Virus genome (UHGV): UHGV-1970859
Source of the DNA: a virus
Strand: one strand, 5' to 3'
Length of the DNA stretch: 23,107 nt
A program made the translations under genes and the position numbers. The notes under the pieces are model-generated. The model saw nothing but the letters and a program-made list of their open reading frames with translations. It did not search any database and was not told the origin of the DNA. Below, piece by piece: positions 15,287 to 22,100 of this stretch; position 1 is the stretch's first letter, and each line of letters begins with the position of its first letter.

Positions 15287-18154
15287 TCATATATCGCGGC
15301 GCGTTTTTTGCTCATTTACGGGATTTGTGAATCCCGTTTCTGTCTGTTTTTTGTTTCCACTGGTCAGGCCACCCCGCAGCAGGTCTGCTTTGCGGCGGGC
15401 GCGTTCAGTGGTTTCACTGATTCTCTGTGCGTGCTCTGCGTCGCGGATGGCGCGCAGCATGTCAGAAAGCACGGTAACGGGTGTTTTCATGGTGTTCTGG
15501 TCTTGCTGAAGTGTGGATGCCAGGCGTGCGGCGGCTTCGGGGTCTGATGCCCCCAGCTGTTCCAGATAGCTGGCGACCGGGTTATGGCGGATCTCCGTGC
15601 TGCTTACGCCGTGGTTACGGCTCAGGCGCTGCCAGAGCTGCGTGATCCGGCTGTCCGGTCTGGTATCCGGTTTGCGTACAATTTCAAATCCCTGCGGTGC
15701 AATGATGCTGCCGTCAACGTACAGACTGCCGCCCCGTAACAGGTGCTGCATCTGTTGTTCACCGATATGCAGGCCGAGAGATTCAGCAGACTCCCGCCAT
15801 TCTTTAGCGAGTAATTCGTGGTTATCAGGCAAAGGCCGCTGCTGTTTGCGGCTCTGTGTCCAGCTCTGCATTTCATCACTGCTGTTTTTTGCCTGTTTGT
15901 CACGAAGCGAACGCATCAGCGCCCGGCGTTCGTGCCGTTTCAGTGAGCGCATCCATTCGTTCACTTCAACGCCGTCAGGGAGCTGCGGCCACGGTGCTGG
16001 CCGTTCTTCCGGCTGTTCTGTCCCGTTGTTGTCCGTTTCCTGTACACGGGGACAGTTATTGCCACGAGTCCAAGGGGCGGCAGGGCCGCCCTGAAGGTCA
16101 AAACCATTTTCGCGGGCGCTGTCTTCCGCTTCCGGTTTGCGTCTTACCAGCTTCCAGTTATCCGGATGCGTGCATACGCGGGAAGACTCCCCAATGAGCG
16201 GCGACCAGATCCCGTAAATCTGTACACTCTGCTCGCCGTAATCGTTCAGCTCATCTGCGAGGTCGTAGGCTGTGCGAATCAGGTAGTCCTTGCGCGGAAC
16301 AAGTACGCCACCCTGTTTTTCAATGTAGGTGGCAAAACATCCGGCATCAGCGGCAGCGAGTACCGCATCCATTGCGTCATCCTTCAGCCGTTGCGGGCCT
16401 TCCGGGTTGCGTGCCATCTGGCTGGCAAGGCGGCGGAGTTCACGCCACACCTGACGGGAGGGGATGCCAAAGAACTGGAACTGGCGGACCCGGTGAAGGC
16501 GCGCCCAGCCGATGGCACGCTCCACGCTCTCGGCCATTGATTTACCTGTTTCGTGGTCAACGCGTGGCTTGCCCGTTTTCGGGTCGATGCCATCCACGGC
16601 ACGGCTGTCCAGGTTTTTCCCGATGTAGGTGGCGATGTAGCTGGTCGGTGTGCCTTTTGAGCCGTCGACGTACTCTGCCTTAAAGCGTGGGGTAATATCA
16701 TCACCCAGCTCGTGACGATCTTCCTGAATGGCAATATCGCGGGTGTGGGACACAATGGTGTCGATTTCTTCCGGATGAGCAAAGACCATCATATGCCAGT
16801 GCACGGTGCCGTCATGGTGAGGCTCCACCGTGCGGATGCCATACCAGCGCAGGCCGTCGCGGTTCAGTTTCTTGCGGACTGCCGCAAAAAACGTGTTAAC
16901 CAGGTAATCGCTGGAGTCGCGCATGGTGGCCCCGTTCCATTTGGGATTCTGATGACCGTTCTCTGTTGTGGCGTGGTATTTTGACGGGCAGGTGACAGTC
17001 AGAAACACCGCTTTGTCGCCACGGGCTTCGGCCAGAAGTTCCAGTCCCTTCATGGTGGCCATCATTTCTGCCTTACGGTGAACCGGGTTACTTACTCCCG
17101 CGTAATACACTGTCTCGAGATCAATCGTGAACCCGTCTTCATTTTCCAGCATGAAACTTTTCAGGAAATCGCGTGTTTTCTCGCGCTGTGCGCGAAACTC
17201 GCTTAACGCGTCCTGGCTCAGATAAGGCGATGTTTTTCTGGAAACCAGACAGGCGGCGCGGAGTTGTTCTTCTCTCCACTCGCAACGTAACAGCCACAGT
17301 TTGCGTTTCCACCATTCCGCACAGGTCAGGCGAAGGATTGCACCCGGCAGCAGCTCTGTGTCCGGTTCGTTCCTCCGGTCTTTGTCTGTTGTCAGTACGT
17401 CATAATGCGGAGGCATGGCGTGCAGGTGTAACGCCATGCGGGCCAGCATCTGATACGCCTTCAGGGTTACATCCATGGTCAGCTCGCCATCGGTCGCGCC
17501 AAAGCCATCGCAGAGTTTTTCGAAGGTGCTGCTGAACATCGCCGCCGTCATGGTGGCCAGCGTCTGTATCTGGTGTTTGTTGAGCTGCGGCAGGTAAAGC
17601 AAATCGTCCAGGCGCTCGCGTCCGGCAAGGGAGCGATAACCCGGTGTCAGCCAGCGTCCGTCAGTGCGATCCAGACGTTCGAATATTTTGCGCAGGGTTC
17701 CGCGTGCATAGCGTTCCGCCTGCCAGTTCTTTTTGCCTTTCTGACGATCGGCTTCCTGCTTCTTGCGCAGAAAAGAGAGGTGGCGGCTCAGAGGTTCACG
17801 CAGATAAACGGGAAGCACCTTCAGTGTGGCAAAAGCACGGGCCACCGGGTCTTGTTCTGTTGCCTGACGCTTGCTGATGATGCTTTGTGTCAGCTTTTCA
17901 CGCTGTCCGGCTTCCTCAAGGGATGCCATGAGTTTTTTACCCACGGTGGATTGTGCGAAAAAGGCTTCCTCCTTCGCTTCCTGTTCTTCCAGGGCCTTTT
18001 TGTCTGCTTCAAGGTAGTAACGGATGGCGCGTTGCAGGTCGGTTTCAGTTTCCTGCCTGCGCTCCGTAAATCTGGCCGGATCAATGGCTGGCCGTGGTTC
18101 ATTCCAGCTCCATGCAAACTCACTCATGGCTGGTATCCCGTCACGTGCTGCCAC
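15287..18154 (-). CDS. A: Replication initiation protein gpA (HUH rolling-circle endonuclease)
   Basis: 955-aa ORF. [21 protein letters not shown] (HUH motif) and [13 protein letters not shown] (paired catalytic tyrosines) resemble P2 gpA ([35 protein letters not shown]). Track start is GTG at 18154; an ATG at 18127 is coupled (ATGA) to the upstream gene stop and may be the true start. Confidence 0.9.
   Translation of the reverse strand: [955 protein letters not shown]
15313..15351. repeat. Repeat unit 2 containing the palindrome ACGGGATT-TGTG-AATCCCGT (about 15318-15337)
   Basis: Near-identical to unit 1 including flanks (TTTACGGGATT...AATCCCGTTT.TG.CTGTTTT), 73 bp away. Lies within the last codons of A. 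Confidence 0.5.
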
Positions 18155-18513
18155 TCCAGCGAGAAGAGGGTGGAAAGGCGGTTAAATTCAGCGGTGTATT
18201 CACTCAGCGAGGCACACCCGCCAGCAGTGCGATGCGCCAGCATTGCCGCAAATATGGAGGCCGGGGAGTCGTAATACGCCAGCAGTGATTCGCCGTGTGG
18301 TGTCAGGCAGTGCAACGCCAGCCCATGTGGTGTGAAGTCCACGCGGTAGCAGTCGTCTACTGTGAAATAAAGGGTGTCTGCATTCTCCGGTTTTGTGGTG
18401 CGTGCTCTGTTGTCACGACCACGGATGTAGAGATCAAATAATCCCTGAAGAACGGGAGCCAGACGGGTGTCCTGTGTGCGCACCCATCTTGTGAAGTCAT
18501 GAGCGTCAATCAT
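18124..18513 (-). CDS. Hypothetical early-operon protein (129 aa)
   Basis: ORF translationally coupled to A. No recognisable motif. Occupies the position of the small P2 orf80-83/B genes. Confidence 0.45.
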   Translation of the reverse strand: MIDAHDFTRWVRTQDTRLAPVLQGLFDLYIRGRDNRARTTKPENADTLYFTVDDCYRVDFTPHGLALHCLTPHGESLLAYYDSPASIFAAMLAHRTAGGCASLSEYTAEFNRLSTLFSLEWQHVTGYQP

Positions 18514-19239: not shown

Positions 19240-19478
19240 GCGATATTTCCCAGTTTGTACGGCTCAATATGCTCCCCGCATTCTGCGGCGCAGATAAGCT
19301 CAGAAAGTTCGTTAAGTGCATCCAGATCGTCAGCGTAAAAAGCCACGTCATACAGACTCCGGATAGCCCTGGTCAATGAGTCACGGGCTGCACGTTCTGA
19401 ATGAGCGCCTGATGCGCTTAAGCGAAAATAAAAACGCTCAAGTGCTTTGTTGATGAGAGTTTTATATTCTTTATCCAT
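19236..19478 (-). CDS. Hypothetical small early protein (80 aa)
   Basis: ORF in the early operon, predicted helical; no recognisable motif. Confidence 0.45.
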   Translation of the reverse strand: MDKEYKTLINKALERFYFRLSASGAHSERAARDSLTRAIRSLYDVAFYADDLDALNELSELICAAECGEHIEPYKLGNIA

Positions 19479-19489
19479 CGCAACACCCT

Positions 19490-19768
19490 TTAATCTGCTT
19501 TCTGAATTTCAGCTTCTGAATCCATGCAGATAATTTCGATATAGGGTTCATCGCCATTAACCTGACGAGATTTTTCGGCTTCGCTAATTATTTCGCGAAT
19601 GGTCTGGTACGGAAGCTCTACAGTCAGGCGTGTACCGTTCAGATAAACGTAGGTAGCTGCGTTTTTTTCAGATGGAACTACTCCGTCAATAGCTGATGCG
19701 CGTAATAACAGTTCACCGCGAAAATCAATAAAGCGGATAAATACACCTTGTGCATGGTCTTTAGTCAT
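19490..19768 (-). CDS. Hypothetical early protein (about 92 aa)
   Basis: Track ORF 19490..19813. The internal ATG at 19768 avoids overlap with the upstream gene. No recognisable motif. Confidence 0.4.
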   Translation of the reverse strand: MTKDHAQGVFIRFIDFRGELLLRASAIDGVVPSEKNAATYVYLNGTRLTVELPYQTIREIISEAEKSRQVNGDEPYIEIICMDSEAEIQKAD

Positions 19769-19778
19769 AAAGCACCTG

Positions 19779-20129
19779 TTATAAATCAGCCTGTTTAATA
19801 AAACTTTGCCCACGAAGCAGACGATCGACTGTGCGCAGTGCTTCGTACAATGTGAAATCCTGCCCGAACTGATTATCGCCGCTGCTTAATGCAAAAATGC
19901 GGTTTCCGGTAAACGGATTGCGTGGGCATCTGTGAACCACGATTCCAGCTTTCTCAATCAGCCAGGTGTGTTCGCCGATTTGTGTTACTGCGTGCCCATC
20001 TGGTGTTGCGTGCGTCTCGTTCAGGTTATAGCGACTGTTACTACGTGATGCACTGGTAGCGACGTGGTGTACATGGCGTTCTACGCCATTACGAAATTTG
20101 AAGTATGGATTATTAGCATTTTTTTTCAT
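19779..20129 (-). CDS. Hypothetical early protein (116 aa)
   Basis: ORF directly downstream of the cox-like gene; His/Cys-containing, no recognisable motif. Confidence 0.45.
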   Translation of the reverse strand: MKKNANNPYFKFRNGVERHVHHVATSASRSNSRYNLNETHATPDGHAVTQIGEHTWLIEKAGIVVHRCPRNPFTGNRIFALSSGDNQFGQDFTLYEALRTVDRLLRGQSFIKQADL

Positions 20130-20150
20130 GATGATGCTCTGTTCATTGTT

Positions 20151-20354
20151 TTAGCTGTTAGCCAAAGCGTCTTTTAACATCGCCACAAGGTTTACTTCAG
20201 GCTTTTCCATTTTGGCGCGTTTGGGGCGGATAATAATTCGACCGTCAGCCAACATCTTTTTGCATGTATTAAGAGGGATACCTGTTATCTCTGCATATTT
20301 CTGCAGGGATACATAGGGGGCATTCACATGGATATTGATGGTTATACCTGACAT
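20151..20354 (-). CDS. cox: Cox-like HTH DNA-binding protein (putative excisionase / switch regulator)
   Basis: 67 aa. APYVSLQKYAEITGIPLNTCKKMLADGRI resembles the P2 Cox HTH (IPYQEFAKLIGKSTGAVRRMIDKGKLPVI). GAGG Shine-Dalgarno. Located at the head of the early operon. Confidence 0.55.
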   Translation of the reverse strand: MSGITINIHVNAPYVSLQKYAEITGIPLNTCKKMLADGRIIIRPKRAKMEKPEVNLVAMLKDALANS

Positions 20355-20370
20355 CCCACTAGCCTCGTGA

Positions 20371-20577
20371 TCAGGAAGATTTGTTTTGTTCTTTCTGGGT
20401 TAGCTCTAGGCCGCGAAGGAAGATCATGCGCGCCATGTTAGAGGATGAGCGTTGTTCTTTAGCTGCCATTTCATCAATGACGGCTCGCTCCTCGAGTGAC
20501 AGCCGAAGTGCCAGTCTTGGACCTGTGGCGGTGTTACGCGGAATGCGTGATCTGGTATCGTGAAGAACTTGTTTCAT
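20371..20577 (-). CDS. Ribbon-helix-helix (Arc/CopG-like) DNA-binding protein, first gene of the early operon
   Basis: 68 aa. PRLALRLSLEERAVIDEMAAKEQRSSSNMARMIFLRGLE fits the RHH beta-strand/helix-A pattern. No obvious Shine-Dalgarno, so possibly leaderless or weakly translated. Confidence 0.45.
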   Translation of the reverse strand: MKQVLHDTRSRIPRNTATGPRLALRLSLEERAVIDEMAAKEQRSSSNMARMIFLRGLELTQKEQNKSS

Positions 20578-20652
20578 AGTGGTATATTGTGATCATCTAA
20601 TAGCTCGTGAAATCATTTTGGTATCAAAAAAGATACCTGTCAAGGTTTTTGT
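20578..20652. promoter_or_regulatory. Lysis-lysogeny switch region (divergent genes, expected face-to-face promoters and operators)
   Basis: 75-bp gap between the early operon and the repressor gene. TGGTAT(C) repeats at about 20553, 20580 and 20619, and an inverted pair GGTATC-AAAAAA-GATACC at about 20620-20637. TATATT -10-like hexamer. Confidence 0.4.
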
Positions 20653-21057
20653 ATGAAAAATGATATTGGTCAGCGGTTGCGTGAGGAAAGGGAAAGATTG
20701 GGACTTAGTCAAGTTGCTATGAGCGACATTGGTGGAGTCAAAAAGCTAACTCAGCTTAGATATGAGAAAGGAGATAGCTTTCCTGATGCTGCGTATTTGG
20801 CAGCGCTGTCTCGTTTTGGCCTTGATGTTCAGTATGTTGTGTTGGGAATTCACTCACCTGAAACTTATAACGATGATGAGCAGGAGCTGATTACTCGCTT
20901 TCGAGCAGCTTCGTTAGATGTGAAAAACGCCGTGATCGGGGCTTTAAAAGGTGCGATCAGTGAAAAGGAAACTCAGCCATCAGGACGTGAGTTAAATATT
21001 TCTGGTGGTAATAACCGTATCGCTGGTCGTGACTATAACGAAACTAAGGGTAGGTGA
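20653..21057 (+). CDS. Immunity repressor (C-like), XRE-family HTH
   Basis: 134 aa. N-terminal GQRLREERERLGLSQVAMSDIGGVKKLTQLRYEKGDSFPDAAYLAALSRFGLDV is a classic XRE HTH. Divergent from the early operon and on the same strand as int, as for P2 C / 186 cI. Confidence 0.7.
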   Translation: MKNDIGQRLREERERLGLSQVAMSDIGGVKKLTQLRYEKGDSFPDAAYLAALSRFGLDVQYVVLGIHSPETYNDDEQELITRFRAASLDVKNAVIGALKGAISEKETQPSGRELNISGGNNRIAGRDYNETKGR

Positions 21058-21072
21058 TAGTAGGGAGGTGAC

Positions 21073-21723
21073 ATGGCCGTCAACTCAAACGGTTCAAACA
21101 ATCGCGTTGCTGGACGTGATTTTCACGAAAAGAATATTCAGATAGCGCGATATGATGGTTCTCATACCGTCAATATCGCAATCCCTTCGAATAATGATGA
21201 TGACGATCGCCCTTTGCTTAAGGCTCAGCGTAAGGAGCTAAATAGCTTGGTTGCTGCTATTGCAGAAGCTAGCAATACTGAAGCGTTTATTATTTGGCAA
21301 AAAGTACATGCGGAGATTGGTGTAGCTGGTATTGATGATATGACAGTAAATCAATATAAAACAGCGGAGAGTTTTCTGCATGCAATGCTTGAGCGATGTA
21401 AAGATCATGATGCCTGTAAGACTCTTGTAAGTTTATTACTACGTAACAGTGAAGACTGTGGACTTCGACAAAAACTTCTGCGGTATTGCCATATCAATTT
21501 CGGTACAGGACGTTTAAACGATCTTACTCGTTCTCAGTTACAGTCTGCATTGTCGTGGTTAGAGCAACAATCGGTATCAAGCCATACAGAGAATTCGACC
21601 TTACCAGAAGTCCGACTTCGTGCTTCAGAATTAATCCGACTTTATCCAAAAGAAATAATATTCTTTATCTGCGTAGGGGTTTTGGTAGGCGGTGCCATTT
21701 CTAGGGTGTTTTTTAATTTGTAA
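21073..21723 (+). CDS. Hypothetical tail-anchored membrane protein (216 aa) in the lysogenic operon
   Basis: GGGAGGTG Shine-Dalgarno. Low-complexity N-terminus (NNDDDD), helical central region, C-terminal TM segment IIFFICVGVLVGGAISRVFF. Its N-terminus repeats a motif from the repressor C-terminus. Confidence 0.5.
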   Translation: MAVNSNGSNNRVAGRDFHEKNIQIARYDGSHTVNIAIPSNNDDDDRPLLKAQRKELNSLVAAIAEASNTEAFIIWQKVHAEIGVAGIDDMTVNQYKTAESFLHAMLERCKDHDACKTLVSLLLRNSEDCGLRQKLLRYCHINFGTGRLNDLTRSQLQSALSWLEQQSVSSHTENSTLPEVRLRASELIRLYPKEIIFFICVGVLVGGAISRVFFNL

Positions 21724-21752
21724 TCTTACTTGAGCTAAATTGAGGTAATGAT

Positions 21753-22100
21753 ATGAAAGTAAAAAAGGTTCAACTATTAGTTACTTTTTTATCTATGTTT
21801 TCTTTTTCCGCCGTCGCAATGCCTTTTAAAAATATTGAACGTGAGAGTTTCAATGGGGTATGGCCATTTAATACTGATGAGGTTCAATTACAGTGTCTTG
21901 ATGGTAATCCTTATGTGATGAATTTTGACGATAATAAGTTATATGCGCTTACAGGTTTGGCTCGAATAAAAGGTAAAACATTTGGTGCGTTACCGTTAGA
22001 TAACAATAATCCATTTTGGCTAGATAATGATGCCGCCCCAGGGTTAAAAAAGAGTCTGGGGGATGTCACTAAGGCTGCATTTGATTTATGTGATAAGTAA
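21753..22100 (+). CDS. Secreted YebY-like (DUF2511) protein
   Basis: 115 aa with signal peptide (MKVKKVQLLVTFLSMFSFSAVA). NGVWPFNTDEVQLQC...PYVMNF and C-terminal AAFDLC resemble E. coli YebY (AWPFTREEVMLTC...LYVINP...LC) as recalled from memory. AT-rich. Confidence 0.55.
   Translation: MKVKKVQLLVTFLSMFSFSAVAMPFKNIERESFNGVWPFNTDEVQLQCLDGNPYVMNFDDNKLYALTGLARIKGKTFGALPLDNNNPFWLDNDAAPGLKKSLGDVTKAAFDLCDK

What the first reader, a model, noticed from the sequence alone, without database searches (positions are those of the whole stretch)
20151..20652. Extra RHH regulator ahead of the Cox-like gene in the early operon, with TGGTATC operator-like repeats
The early operon begins with a 68-aa ribbon-helix-helix protein lacking an obvious Shine-Dalgarno, followed after 16 bp by the Cox-like HTH gene. 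P2 has Cox as the first early gene. TGGTAT(C) direct repeats and a GGTATC-N6-GATACC dyad lie across the switch region. This suggests a modified lysis-lysogeny switch with an additional DNA-binding player.
Basis: partly seen in the sequence, partly recalled or inferred. Interest (0 to 1): 0.45.

Follow-up and report, generated by a model that had tools for sequence, protein, structure and literature searches.

The report
Extra small regulator in P2-like switch
A P2-like E. coli prophage has a real, conserved 68-residue ribbon-helix-helix gene as the first gene of its lytic operon, ahead of the usual Cox-like gene; this is an unstudied three-protein form of a well-known phage switch, and standard genome annotation misses the gene.

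Summary
A 68-aa ORF (20577-20371, minus strand) has no Shine-Dalgarno sequence. It lies 16 nt upstream of a 67-aa Cox-like ORF and faces away from an HTH repressor gene.

The ORF is a real gene.
- It matches PHROG 3431 'Arc-like repressor' (E 1e-28), and its family profile hits solved RHH proteins.
- dN/dS is 0.03-0.23.
- It is the first early gene in every one of about 190 related loci from at least 8 genera of Enterobacterales.
- RefSeq E. coli genomes annotate a 45-aa ORF on the opposite strand instead.

The 'TGGTATC operator repeats' are three unrelated elements.
- The GGTATC-N6-GATACC dyad fills the spacer of the early promoter (TTGACA-17-CAAAAT). It changes with the repressor type, so it is the repressor's operator.
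- TGGTATATT (20580-20588) is an invariant extended -10 for the repressor promoter. This gives the face-to-face promoter layout of P2-type switches.
- TGGTATC at 20553 is just the codons D-T-R and is not conserved outside the E. coli group.

What the RHH does is inferred, not shown. Most likely it acts on the lytic side, binding the invariant 17-27 bp block over the repressor promoter's -10 and its own start codon.

Verdict: a new variant of a known kind, of moderate interest.

The parts
20371..20577 (-). 68-aa ribbon-helix-helix (Arc-like) gene, first gene of the early (lytic) operon. It has an ATG start and no Shine-Dalgarno sequence.
   Evidence: ORF. PHROG 3431 E 9.8e-29 over the full length. 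Family profile hits HP0222 at 4.3e-4 and Arc at 0.011-0.014. hhalign against Arc gives 68% probability, E 4.8e-5. dN/dS is 0.03-0.23. The gene is present in 107/107 and 80/80 related loci.
20151..20354 (-). 67-aa Cox-like (excisionase-type HTH) gene, second in the early operon, 16 nt after the RHH stop, with a GAGG Shine-Dalgarno sequence.
   Evidence: PHROG 575 E 1.5e-27. 44-46% identical to the cox genes of HP2/S2 and K139. Profile against P2 Cox gives 84.7% by hhalign and PDB 4lhf E 0.25.
20653..21057 (+). [quoted passage not shown]
   Evidence: Pfam HTH_31/HTH_19/HTH_3 at sub-threshold scores and PHROG 8 E 2.5e-14. A divergent C-like ORF is present in 103/107 loci; the other four are cut by contig ends.
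20615..20643 (-). Early promoter Pe: -35 TTGACA (20643-20638), 17-nt spacer, -10 CAAAAT (20620-20615).
   Evidence: The only sigma-70-like site found in 20100-20800, 10 of 12 matches. The TTGACA-like hexamer is kept, with occasional one- or two-base variants, in the 53 distinct switch regions despite different spacers.
20620..20637 (.). Dyad GGTATC-N6-GATACC inside the Pe spacer: operator O1 of the C repressor.
   Evidence: Unique exact match in the window. Each of at least 6 repressor types carries its own dyad at this exact position, while the RHH and cox-like genes stay the same.
20580..20588 (+). TGGTATATT: extended -10 (TGnTATAAT-like) of the repressor promoter Pc, facing Pe. The inferred start is near 20595.
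   Evidence: Present in all non-redundant switch regions. The most conserved positions are T1, A2 and T6 of the hexamer and the TG. The variants TACATT, TATGTT, TATAGT and TGA- all keep these positions. The annotated PL of K139 and pL of HP2 lie at the equivalent place, next to the first early gene.
20568..20594 (-). Nearly invariant block GATCACAATATACCACT-ATG-AAACAAG (-17 to +10 of the RHH start). It contains the Pc -10, a GATC site and two A(T/C)CAC repeats 10 bp apart. It is the candidate RHH binding site and the RHH translation-start context.
   Evidence: Information content is mostly 1.0-2.0 bits from -17 to +10, against mostly under 1 bit further upstream, although RHH proteins are only 40-50% identical. 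The block is absent upstream of cox in RHH-less relatives, which have normal Shine-Dalgarno sequences. It is retained in L113, where the second gene is unrelated.
20553..20559 (+). TGGTATC inside the RHH coding region (codons Asp7-Thr8-Arg9 on the minus strand). Not a conserved site.
   Evidence: Other genera encode D-Q-R or other residues here and lack the motif. L012 loses it through a synonymous GAT>GAC change.
20426..20563 (+). 45-aa ORF antisense to the RHH gene, which RefSeq/PGAP annotates as 'hypothetical protein' in place of the RHH. Probably spurious.
   Evidence: Annotated in NZ_CP058874 and NC_013361. It matches no family. Its frame shares wobble positions with the RHH frame. Its dN/dS is higher than that of the RHH frame in 13 of the 14 pairs for which both could be computed (one pair, WIN-L012, was marginally lower), and amino-acid changes are more radical in 10 of 15 pairs. 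It is cut to 44 codons in Yersinia loci.
20650..20667 (.). Tentative weak second repressor site O2 (TGTATG-N6-GATATT), 30 bp from O1, overlapping the C start codon.
   Evidence: Read from the sequence. It has the same 6-N6-6 geometry as O1 but 4 of 12 mismatches. The type-2 repressor loci have a clear second dyad at the equivalent place, 32 bp from O1. Here the match could also come from coding constraint.

Best explanation
The window carries a P2-family (Xuanwuvirus/P88-like) prophage whose immunity module is a three-protein variant of the P2-type switch.

Shown or strongly supported by sequence comparison:
1. Two face-to-face promoters lie in a 75-bp intergenic region. Pe is TTGACA-17-CAAAAT. 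Pc is the extended -10 TGGTATATT.
2. The XRE-type C repressor binds the GGTATC-N6-GATACC dyad that fills the Pe spacer, shutting off the early operon. A repressor bound there also sits in the path of Pc transcripts.
3. Pe transcribes, in order, a 68-aa ribbon-helix-helix protein, a 67-aa Cox-like protein and the replication genes.

Inferred:
4. The RHH protein binds as a dimer or a dimer of dimers to the invariant block over the Pc -10 element and its own start codon. The best candidate half-sites are the two A(T/C)CAC repeats 10 bp apart that bracket the -10 hexamer.
5. Binding there turns off repressor synthesis once the lytic operon fires. Because the site lies at about +8 to +30 of the Pe transcript, it also dampens the RHH's own operon.
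6. The RHH would then supply the Cro-like, Pc-repressing half of what P2 Cox or 186 Apl do alone. The small Cox-like protein would serve mainly as the excision directionality factor.
7. The missing Shine-Dalgarno sequence would keep RHH levels low relative to Cox-like.
For: The gene is real.
- PHROG 3431 E 9.8e-29.
- The family profile hits solved RHH proteins: HP0222 4.3e-4, Arc 0.011-0.014. hhalign against Arc gives E 4.8e-5.
- dN/dS is 0.03-0.23 and lower than in the antisense frame in 13 of the 14 computable pairs.
- It persists at 40-52% identity in Hafnia, Yersinia, Mixta, Pectobacterium, Erwinia, Serratia and Edwardsiella.

Its position is fixed.
- It is the first early gene in 107/107 loci found through the RHH and in 80/80 loci found through the Cox-like protein.
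- It stays first when a 79-aa ORF is inserted after it and when the second gene is unrelated.
- No promoter-like or terminator-like site lies between the RHH and cox-like genes.

The dyad is the C operator. At least 6 repressor types each have their own dyad in the Pe spacer, next to the same RHH gene.

The Pc assignment.
- The conservation pattern over 21 non-redundant regions matches an extended -10.
- K139 and HP2 have annotated lysogenic promoters at the equivalent place.
- Convergent Pe/Pc promoters are the P2 design (PMC1904263 abstract).

The block goes with the RHH.
- Conservation extends beyond the -10 element, from -17 to +10.
- Mosaic breakpoints separate it from the repressor and operator side.
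- It is absent in RHH-less relatives that carry the same Cox family.
- It is kept in L113 beside a different second gene.

The module takes the place of a plain C + Cox pair in P88, a phage of the same genus.
Against: - No binding, transcription or genetic data exist for any family member.
- The Cox-like protein co-occurs with the block almost as strictly. It is better conserved (60-66% identity, with a nearly invariant recognition helix) than the RHH. It could be the protein that binds the block, as P2 Cox does at Pc.
- The RHH beta-strand residues aligned to Arc's DNA-contacting residues vary between groups (R-A-R, P-P-R, R-A-Y) while the block hardly changes.
- Block conservation could be explained by the promoter plus the unusual translation start alone.
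- Pfam RHH_1 is below its cut-off for the single sequence.
- The AlphaFold monomer model did not give a beta-alpha-alpha fold.
- Pc is assigned from sequence only.
Confidence: 0.45

Rival explanations
1. The RHH is an Arc-type negative autoregulator of the early operon only. It binds near or inside Pe and limits the burst of early transcription, as P22 Arc does as first gene of the arc-ant operon. Repression of Pc and excision are both left to the Cox-like protein, as in P2, 186 and HP1.
For: [quoted passage not shown]
- Relatives in the same Cox family (K139, HP2, YenM_31.17, EcoM-813R9) function without any RHH, so the Cox-like protein can presumably regulate the switch alone.
- The conserved block lies within the first 30 nt of the Pe transcript, where a bound protein would act on Pe.
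Against: - The Pe spacer is already filled by the repressor operator and varies with repressor type while the RHH stays the same. No RHH-linked site is conserved at Pe itself.
- The only RHH-linked conserved DNA overlaps the Pc -10, so an effect on Pc is hard to avoid.
Confidence: 0.2
2. The RHH promotes lysogeny and is a functional stand-in for CII. Made early from Pe, it would activate Pc, which has no recognisable -35, or another repressor-directed promoter, giving the burst of repressor and integrase needed to establish lysogeny.
For: - RHH-less relatives with the same Cox family all carry a CII-like activator right after cox.
- RHH-bearing modules have no CII-like gene downstream, only DUF4761, PHROG 3800 and DUF4754.
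- Pc has only an extended -10. The hexamer at the -35 position (GTGAAG) matches 3 of 6 and lies in the conserved 5' end of the RHH gene.
Against: - Extended -10 promoters usually need no activator.
- P2 itself has neither CII nor an equivalent.
- RHH proteins are mostly repressors.
- The strongest conservation sits on the -10 and downstream of it, not at -35 to -60 of Pc, where an activator would bind.
Confidence: 0.12
3. The RHH does not regulate the switch promoters. It works with the Cox-like protein or on the repressor: as an accessory DNA-bending or architectural factor in excision at attP, as an anti-repressor, or as an antitoxin-like partner.
For: - It is tightly adjacent to an excisionase-type gene, 4-16 nt away or overlapping it, in nearly all loci.
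- There is a weak RelB-antitoxin similarity (E 0.044).
Against: - In L113 the downstream gene is unrelated, and in L178 another ORF separates the two genes, yet the RHH keeps first position next to the promoters.
- No toxin-like gene follows, and the RelB score is far below its cut-off (14 against 50 bits).
- No block-like motif was seen in the int-proximal att arm.
Confidence: 0.1
4. The RHH ORF is not a gene. The annotated 45-aa ORF on the other strand (20426-20563) is the real one, or the region is an untranslated leader.
For: - PGAP/RefSeq annotates the antisense ORF in E. coli genomes.
- The RHH start has no Shine-Dalgarno sequence.
- The antisense frame stays open for 44-66 codons in most loci.
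Against: - The two frames share wobble positions, so an open antisense frame is expected.
- dN/dS is lower in the RHH frame than in the antisense frame in 13 of the 14 computable pairs, and amino-acid replacements are more conservative in 10 of 15 pairs.
- The RHH frame has a conserved ATG and N-terminus and fold-family matches.
- An exhaustive search finds a small coherent family, including tandem-duplicated forms.
- The antisense product matches nothing.
Confidence: 0.03

Closest known systems
Bacteriophage P2 / W-phi lysis-lysogeny switch (C, Cox, convergent Pe and Pc)
   Same: - Same phage family, and the same gene order: int and C on one side, the early operon on the other.
- Face-to-face promoters in a short intergenic region.
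[quoted passage not shown]
- An excisionase-type small protein is encoded in the early operon (PMC3936717).
   Different: - Here the first early gene is an RHH protein, not Cox.
- The Cox-like protein is 67 aa and only remotely similar to P2 Cox.
- The repressor is an XRE-type protein of 134 aa that pairs with an inverted-repeat operator in the Pe spacer, whereas P2 C binds direct repeats (PMC2995052).
- Two extra genes lie between C and int.
Switch regions of HP2/S2, K139 and 186-type phages (CI - Cox/Apl - CII)
   Same: - The 67-aa protein is a true homologue (41-45% identity) of the cox genes of HP2/S2, K139, YenM_31.17 and EcoM-813R9.
- Their annotated lysogenic promoter lies right next to the first early gene, as inferred here.
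   Different: - In those phages cox is the first early gene and has a normal Shine-Dalgarno sequence. In three of the four a CII-like activator follows it (in HP2 the next ORF is unannotated), and the CI repressor is long (190-215 aa).
- They have no RHH gene and no GATCACAATATACCA block.
P22 Arc (immI region: arc-ant operon)
   Same: - A small ribbon-helix-helix protein with a basic N-terminal arm.
- It is the first gene of an operon next to a pair of closely spaced, opposed promoters.
- Sequence-profile similarity is detectable.
   Different: - Similarity is remote (27% identity over 45 residues).
- The context is the primary immunity switch of a P2-like phage, not a secondary immunity region controlling an antirepressor.
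- The operator is unknown.
Lambda Cro / 186 Apl as first gene of the lytic operon
   Same: In the proposed role it is a small DNA-binding protein, made first from the lytic promoter, that shuts off the repressor's promoter.
   Different: The fold differs (RHH rather than HTH), and the role here is inferred, not shown.

Membership tests
Ribbon-helix-helix (Arc/MetJ/CopG) superfamily | Sequence match to the beta-strand/helix/helix core of known RHH proteins | tested here: met
   - The family profile hits HP0222 (1x93) at E 4.3e-4, Arc at 0.011-0.014 and CopG at 0.06-0.4.
- hhalign against Arc gives 68% probability and E 4.8e-5 over 45 columns, covering strand and both helices.
Ribbon-helix-helix (Arc/MetJ/CopG) superfamily | Reaches the curated Pfam threshold (RHH_1 / RHH_5) | tested here: not met
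   RHH_1 scores 13.5 bits against a cut-off of 20.5. RHH_5 scores 13.2 against 26. Both have E 0.075.
Ribbon-helix-helix (Arc/MetJ/CopG) superfamily | Predicted or solved beta-alpha-alpha fold forming an intertwined dimer | tested here: inconclusive
   The AlphaFold2 monomer model from a 7-sequence alignment gave one continuous helix over residues 28-67, with pLDDT 73 and pTM 0.33. A dimer could not be modelled. Tandem-duplicated family members (P0016, P0021, P0026) fit a dimeric unit.
PHROG 3431 'Arc-like repressor' | Full-length match to the family profile | tested here: met
   E 9.8e-29, residues 1-68 on profile positions 1-67 of 67. Distant members L113 and L115 also match.
P2 Cox / 186 Apl family (for the 67-aa neighbour) | Sequence membership | tested here: inconclusive
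   - PHROG 575 'Cox-like excisionase and repressor' E 1.5e-27.
- Pfam Phage_Cox does not hit the window protein and hits only 3 of 12 relatives at E 0.0018 or worse.
- PDB 4lhf E 0.25.
P2 Cox / 186 Apl family (for the 67-aa neighbour) | Acts as excisionase and represses the lysogenic promoter | not testable with these tools
   No experimental data were found for this subfamily. The names in the HP2, S2 and K139 records rest on position and similarity.
P2-type genetic switch | Convergent (face-to-face) early and repressor promoters between divergent genes | tested here: met
   Pe was found by the scan. Pc was inferred from an invariant extended -10 on the opposite strand, with the inferred starts overlapping by roughly 13 nt. 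This rests on sequence only.
P2-type genetic switch | [quoted passage not shown] | tested here: not met
   The RHH precedes the Cox-like gene in all 187 loci examined.
186-type genetic switch | CII-like activator downstream of apl/cox, and a long CI repressor | tested here: not met
   None of the downstream ORFs that were scanned is CII-like (DUF4761, PHROG 3800, DUF4754). The repressor is 134 aa.
Type II toxin-antitoxin RHH antitoxin (RelB/ParD/CopG type) | Family score above cut-off and an adjacent toxin gene | tested here: not met
   NCBIfam RelB_antitoxin scores 14.1 bits against a cut-off of 50. The downstream gene is the Cox-like HTH protein, and no toxin family was hit.

The most novel reading that the evidence does not exclude
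This immunity module is a true three-repressor switch in which the two jobs of P2 Cox are split. An RHH protein with an unusual, Shine-Dalgarno-less start silences the repressor promoter by sitting on its extended -10. The 67-aa Cox-like protein is left as a pure excision directionality factor. That would make the module a natural dissection of a multifunctional phage regulator. It is present in about 10% of complete E. coli genomes, including O26, O103 and O157 strains, and is unannotated in RefSeq.
Probability: 0.35. Interest if true: 0.55.

Novelty: new variant of a known kind. Interest (0 to 1): 0.4.

Why it matters
P2-like prophages are among the commonest in Enterobacterales. Their switch is a textbook example of two repressors acting on convergent promoters.

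- **A third player.** A conserved third DNA-binding protein at the head of the lytic operon would change how the lysis-lysogeny decision, excision and possibly satellite activation are wired in a widespread subgroup. That subgroup covers 522 of 5426 complete E. coli genomes and at least seven other genera.
- **Easy to test.** The system needs only three small proteins and a 100-bp DNA fragment.
- **Annotation error.** RefSeq annotates the wrong strand at this locus in E. coli. The error is easily corrected and may recur for other genes that lack a Shine-Dalgarno sequence.

Tried and rejected
1. **TGGTAT(C) copies as one set of operator repeats: rejected.** The three copies have different conservation patterns and explanations.
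2. **RHH as a toxin-antitoxin antitoxin: rejected.** The score is below cut-off and there is no toxin gene.
3. **RHH plus Cox-like as a split version of the 141-aa Cox of phage P88: rejected.** P88 Cox shows no RHH-like part (hhalign probability 0.1%) and only a trace HTH match.
4. **A second promoter producing a leaderless RHH mRNA (TTCACA-16-CAATAT, start at the ATG): considered from the sequence.** The -35-like hexamer is only partly conserved and is missing in L113 and L005. The -10 matches 3 of 6. The conserved TG fits the opposite-strand extended -10 better. Not excluded.
5. **Shared motifs between the switch and the int-proximal att arm (possible Cox boxes): nothing found.** Only the tRNA-Leu core was shared. 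The other att arm is outside the window.
6. **Structure prediction of the RHH monomer: uninformative**, so no fold search was run.
7. **Near-matches of the repressor dyad inside the cox-like gene (20265-20282, 20331-20348):** within chance expectation and not conserved in L003.
8. **Similarity of GATCACA/TATCACT to the omega-repressor heptad (A/T)ATCAC(A/T):** recalled from memory. The spacing here is 10 bp, not 7, and this was not tested.
9. **Literature searches** for an RHH protein in P2-like switches, for Xuanwuvirus and for phage 520873 found nothing relevant.
10. **First attempt to search genomes with the 12-sequence alignment** failed for lack of a conserved stretch. A 6-sequence alignment worked.
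Full report
**What is in the sequence.**
- On the minus strand, a 68-aa ORF (20577-20371) starts with ATG and is preceded by TAGATGATCACAATATACCACT, which contains no Shine-Dalgarno sequence.
- Sixteen nucleotides after its stop, a 67-aa ORF (20354-20151) begins behind a GAGG.
- Across a 75-bp intergenic region, a 134-aa XRE-type HTH protein (20653-21057) is encoded on the plus strand. It is followed by a 216-aa Flk_N-like membrane protein, a DUF2511 protein and a tyrosine integrase.
- TGGTAT occurs at 20553, 20580 and 20619. With 21 copies in 23 kb, three within 72 bp is unlikely by chance.
- GGTATC-N6-GATACC at 20620-20637 is unique in the window.

**Where the window comes from.**
- It is a P2-like prophage of the genus Xuanwuvirus (P88-like), 95% identical to Escherichia phage 520873 over the 2.4-kb query 19400-21800.
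- It sits next to yecA. The same 510-bp switch module is in 522 of 5426 complete E. coli genomes, including O26, O103, O45 and some O157:H7 strains.
- Phage P88 shares the downstream early genes but has a plain P2-type pair, C (93 aa) and Cox (141 aa), in the same slot. The module studied here is therefore an alternative immunity cassette.

**Is the RHH ORF a gene?** Yes.
- It matches PHROG 3431 'Arc-like repressor' over its full length (E 1e-28).
- An exhaustive search of 1.8 billion representative proteins finds a small, coherent family of 18 clusters. They share an N-terminal R-S-R-x-P-R/K-G arm, an L-R-L strand and an RSxSxMAR..LRGL helix. Three members are tandem duplicates.
- The family profile hits solved RHH proteins: HP0222 at 4e-4, Arc at 0.01, and CopG. 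It aligns to Arc across strand and both helices.
- A single sequence does not reach the Pfam cut-off, and a monomer AlphaFold model was uninformative. The fold assignment therefore rests on profiles.
- In 107 loci gathered through the RHH, the frame is intact in almost all. The exceptions are one C-terminal truncation, one N-terminal loss and one decaying Yersinia ruckeri prophage.
- dN/dS is 0.03-0.23.
- RefSeq/PGAP annotates a 45-aa ORF on the opposite strand (20426-20563) and omits the RHH. That frame shares wobble positions with the RHH frame, which explains why it stays open. It has a higher dN/dS in 13 of the 14 pairs for which both could be computed, more radical replacements in 10 of 15 pairs, no family match, and is shortened in other genera.

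**Conserved synteny.**
- In Hafnia, Yersinia, Mixta, Pectobacterium, Erwinia, Serratia and Edwardsiella, the RHH (40-52% identical) is always the first gene facing away from a C-like repressor. A Cox-like gene (59-66% identical) follows 4-16 nt later.
- Conversely, all 80 closest Cox-like loci in IMG/VR have the RHH upstream.
- The RHH stays first even when a 79-aa ORF is inserted behind it (L178) or the second gene is unrelated (L113). Its fixed partner is therefore the promoter region rather than Cox-like itself.
- More distant homologues of the Cox-like protein (HP2/S2, K139, YenM_31.17, EcoM-813R9; 41-45% identity) are first genes with ordinary Shine-Dalgarno sequences. In three of the four a CII-like activator follows (in HP2 the next ORF is unannotated), and all four face long CI repressors.

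**What the repeats are.**
- The promoter scan finds one sigma-70-like site. It is on the minus strand: TTGACA (20643-20638), 17 nt, CAAAAT (20620-20615). The dyad exactly fills its spacer.
- Among 53 distinct switch regions, at least six repressor types each carry their own dyad at this position: GGTAYC..GRTACC, TAGGAA..TTCC, GAGATC..GATCTC, TTGACCA..TGGTCAA, GCGAAC..GTTCGC and GCAGA..TCTGC. The TTGACA and the RHH gene stay the same. The dyad is therefore the operator of the C repressor, not of the RHH.
- The second TGGTAT is part of TGGTATATT (20580-20588). In 21 non-redundant regions, the best-conserved positions are the TG and positions 1, 2 and 6 of the hexamer. The observed variants (TACATT, TATGTT, TATAGT, TGA-) keep exactly those. 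That is the signature of an extended -10 reading towards the repressor gene.
- This gives face-to-face Pe and Pc, with inferred starts near 20608 and 20595, as in P2 (PMC1904263). The PL of K139 and pL of HP2 are annotated in the corresponding place.
- The third copy, TGGTATC at 20553, is the codons Asp-Thr-Arg of the RHH. Other genera encode Asp-Gln-Arg or other residues and lack it.

**What is left for the RHH.**
- The DNA from -17 to +10 of the RHH start (GATCACAATATACCACT-ATG-AAACAAG) is almost invariant, although the proteins are only 40-50% identical.
- The block travels with the RHH side at mosaic junctions. It is absent before cox in RHH-less relatives. It is kept in L113 beside a different second gene.
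- The -10 element explains only nine of these bases.
- The rest includes a GATC and two A(T/C)CAC repeats 10 bp apart that bracket the -10 hexamer. In several loci the repeats are perfect: ATCAC-AATAT-ATCAC.
- I infer that this is where the RHH binds. Binding there would shut off Pc and, because the site lies early in the Pe transcript, would also dampen Pe.
- This is an inference. The Cox-like protein is even better conserved and could be the binder, as Cox is in P2 (PMC3936717). The putative DNA-reading residues of the RHH strand also vary between groups.

**Rival explanations.**
- A purely autoregulatory Arc-like role.
- A CII-like, lysogeny-promoting role. RHH-bearing modules lack the CII gene that three of the four RHH-less relatives examined have, which makes this attractive.
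- A role in excision, or against the repressor.
- The 'not a gene' reading is essentially excluded.

**Comparison with known systems and novelty.**
- The architecture is a P2-type switch. It fails the feature 'Cox is the first early gene and there are two players', and the repressor pairs with an inverted repeat rather than P2-style direct repeats (PMC2995052). It is not a 186-type switch either, because CII is absent.
- The RHH family has a PHROG label and one RefSeq phage annotation ('Arc-like repressor' in NC_049344).
- I found no paper on it or on any RHH protein in a P2-like switch. The 2011 survey of P2-like regulatory regions set aside regions it could not align to the P2 or 186 types.
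- I rate it a new variant of a known kind, of moderate interest.

**Seen in passing.** The repressor's C-terminal tail (NNRIAGRDYNE) is repeated at the N-terminus of the next gene product, the Flk_N-like membrane protein (NNRVAGRDFHE). Across about 50 distinct loci, repressors with the tail are followed by that protein wherever a downstream ORF was detected, and repressors without it never are. This may deserve its own follow-up.

Noticed in passing
window 20995-21057 and 21073-21150: The C repressor ends ...GGNNRIAGRDYNETKGR, and the next ORF (216 aa, Flk_N-like, with a C-terminal membrane anchor) begins MAVNSNGSNNRVAGRDFHEKN. Across about 50 distinct related loci, repressors carrying this tail are followed by a Flk_N-like ORF with the motif at its N-terminus wherever a downstream ORF was detected (none was found in 4 tail-bearing loci). 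The 118-122-aa repressors without the tail are followed by unrelated ORFs. This suggests a physical or regulatory link between the repressor and a membrane protein.
   Followed up: partly
window 20426-20563 (+): RefSeq/PGAP annotates this 45-aa antisense ORF (WP_123009457, WP_001673482) as a hypothetical protein and leaves the RHH gene unannotated in E. coli genomes. Only the PHROG-based phage record NC_049344 names the RHH.
   Followed up: yes
L002 6709-7064 (outside the window, beyond int): The prophage appears to be integrated at the 3' end of a tRNA gene beside yecA. I take it to be tRNA-Leu (leuZ) from memory; no tRNA scan was run. The same tRNA-like core lies next to int in most related loci from other genera.
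   Followed up: partly
L178 1031-1704: In some loci a 79-aa ORF of unknown function lies between the RHH and Cox-like genes, and the RHH remains first.
   Followed up: no
L113 2992-3503: A distant RHH (45% identical) is followed by an unrelated 104-aa ORF that overlaps it by 4 nt, instead of the PHROG 575 Cox-like gene. The extended -10 block is still present.
   Followed up: partly
L185 700-1710 (probably also L187, L189, L190 and L193, which give the same hit coordinates but were not opened): In this Pectobacterium-like variant the repressor and switch are replaced by a 171-aa ORF and unrelated DNA. The RHH has a new N-terminus (MAAISEQRSR...) with a normal Shine-Dalgarno sequence.
   Followed up: no
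proteins P0016, P0021, P0026 (not in the window): Three members of the RHH family are tandem duplications: two RHH units in one chain of 120-153 aa. Their genomic context could not be looked up.
   Followed up: no
window 20590-20593 and 20549-20552: A GATC (Dam) site lies between the inferred Pc -10 and its start. It is conserved in all groups except Edwardsiella. A second GATC lies in the RHH codons Arg-Ser.
   Followed up: no
window 20265-20282 and 20331-20348: Two imperfect copies of the repressor dyad (2 and 3 mismatches) lie inside the cox-like gene, about 290 and 355 bp from O1. They are within chance expectation and are not conserved in L003.
   Followed up: partly
window 18124-18513 (-): A 129-aa early-region ORF is labelled 'inositol monophosphatase' in NZ_CP058874. 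That is an unlikely name for a small phage early protein, and I did not check it.
   Followed up: no
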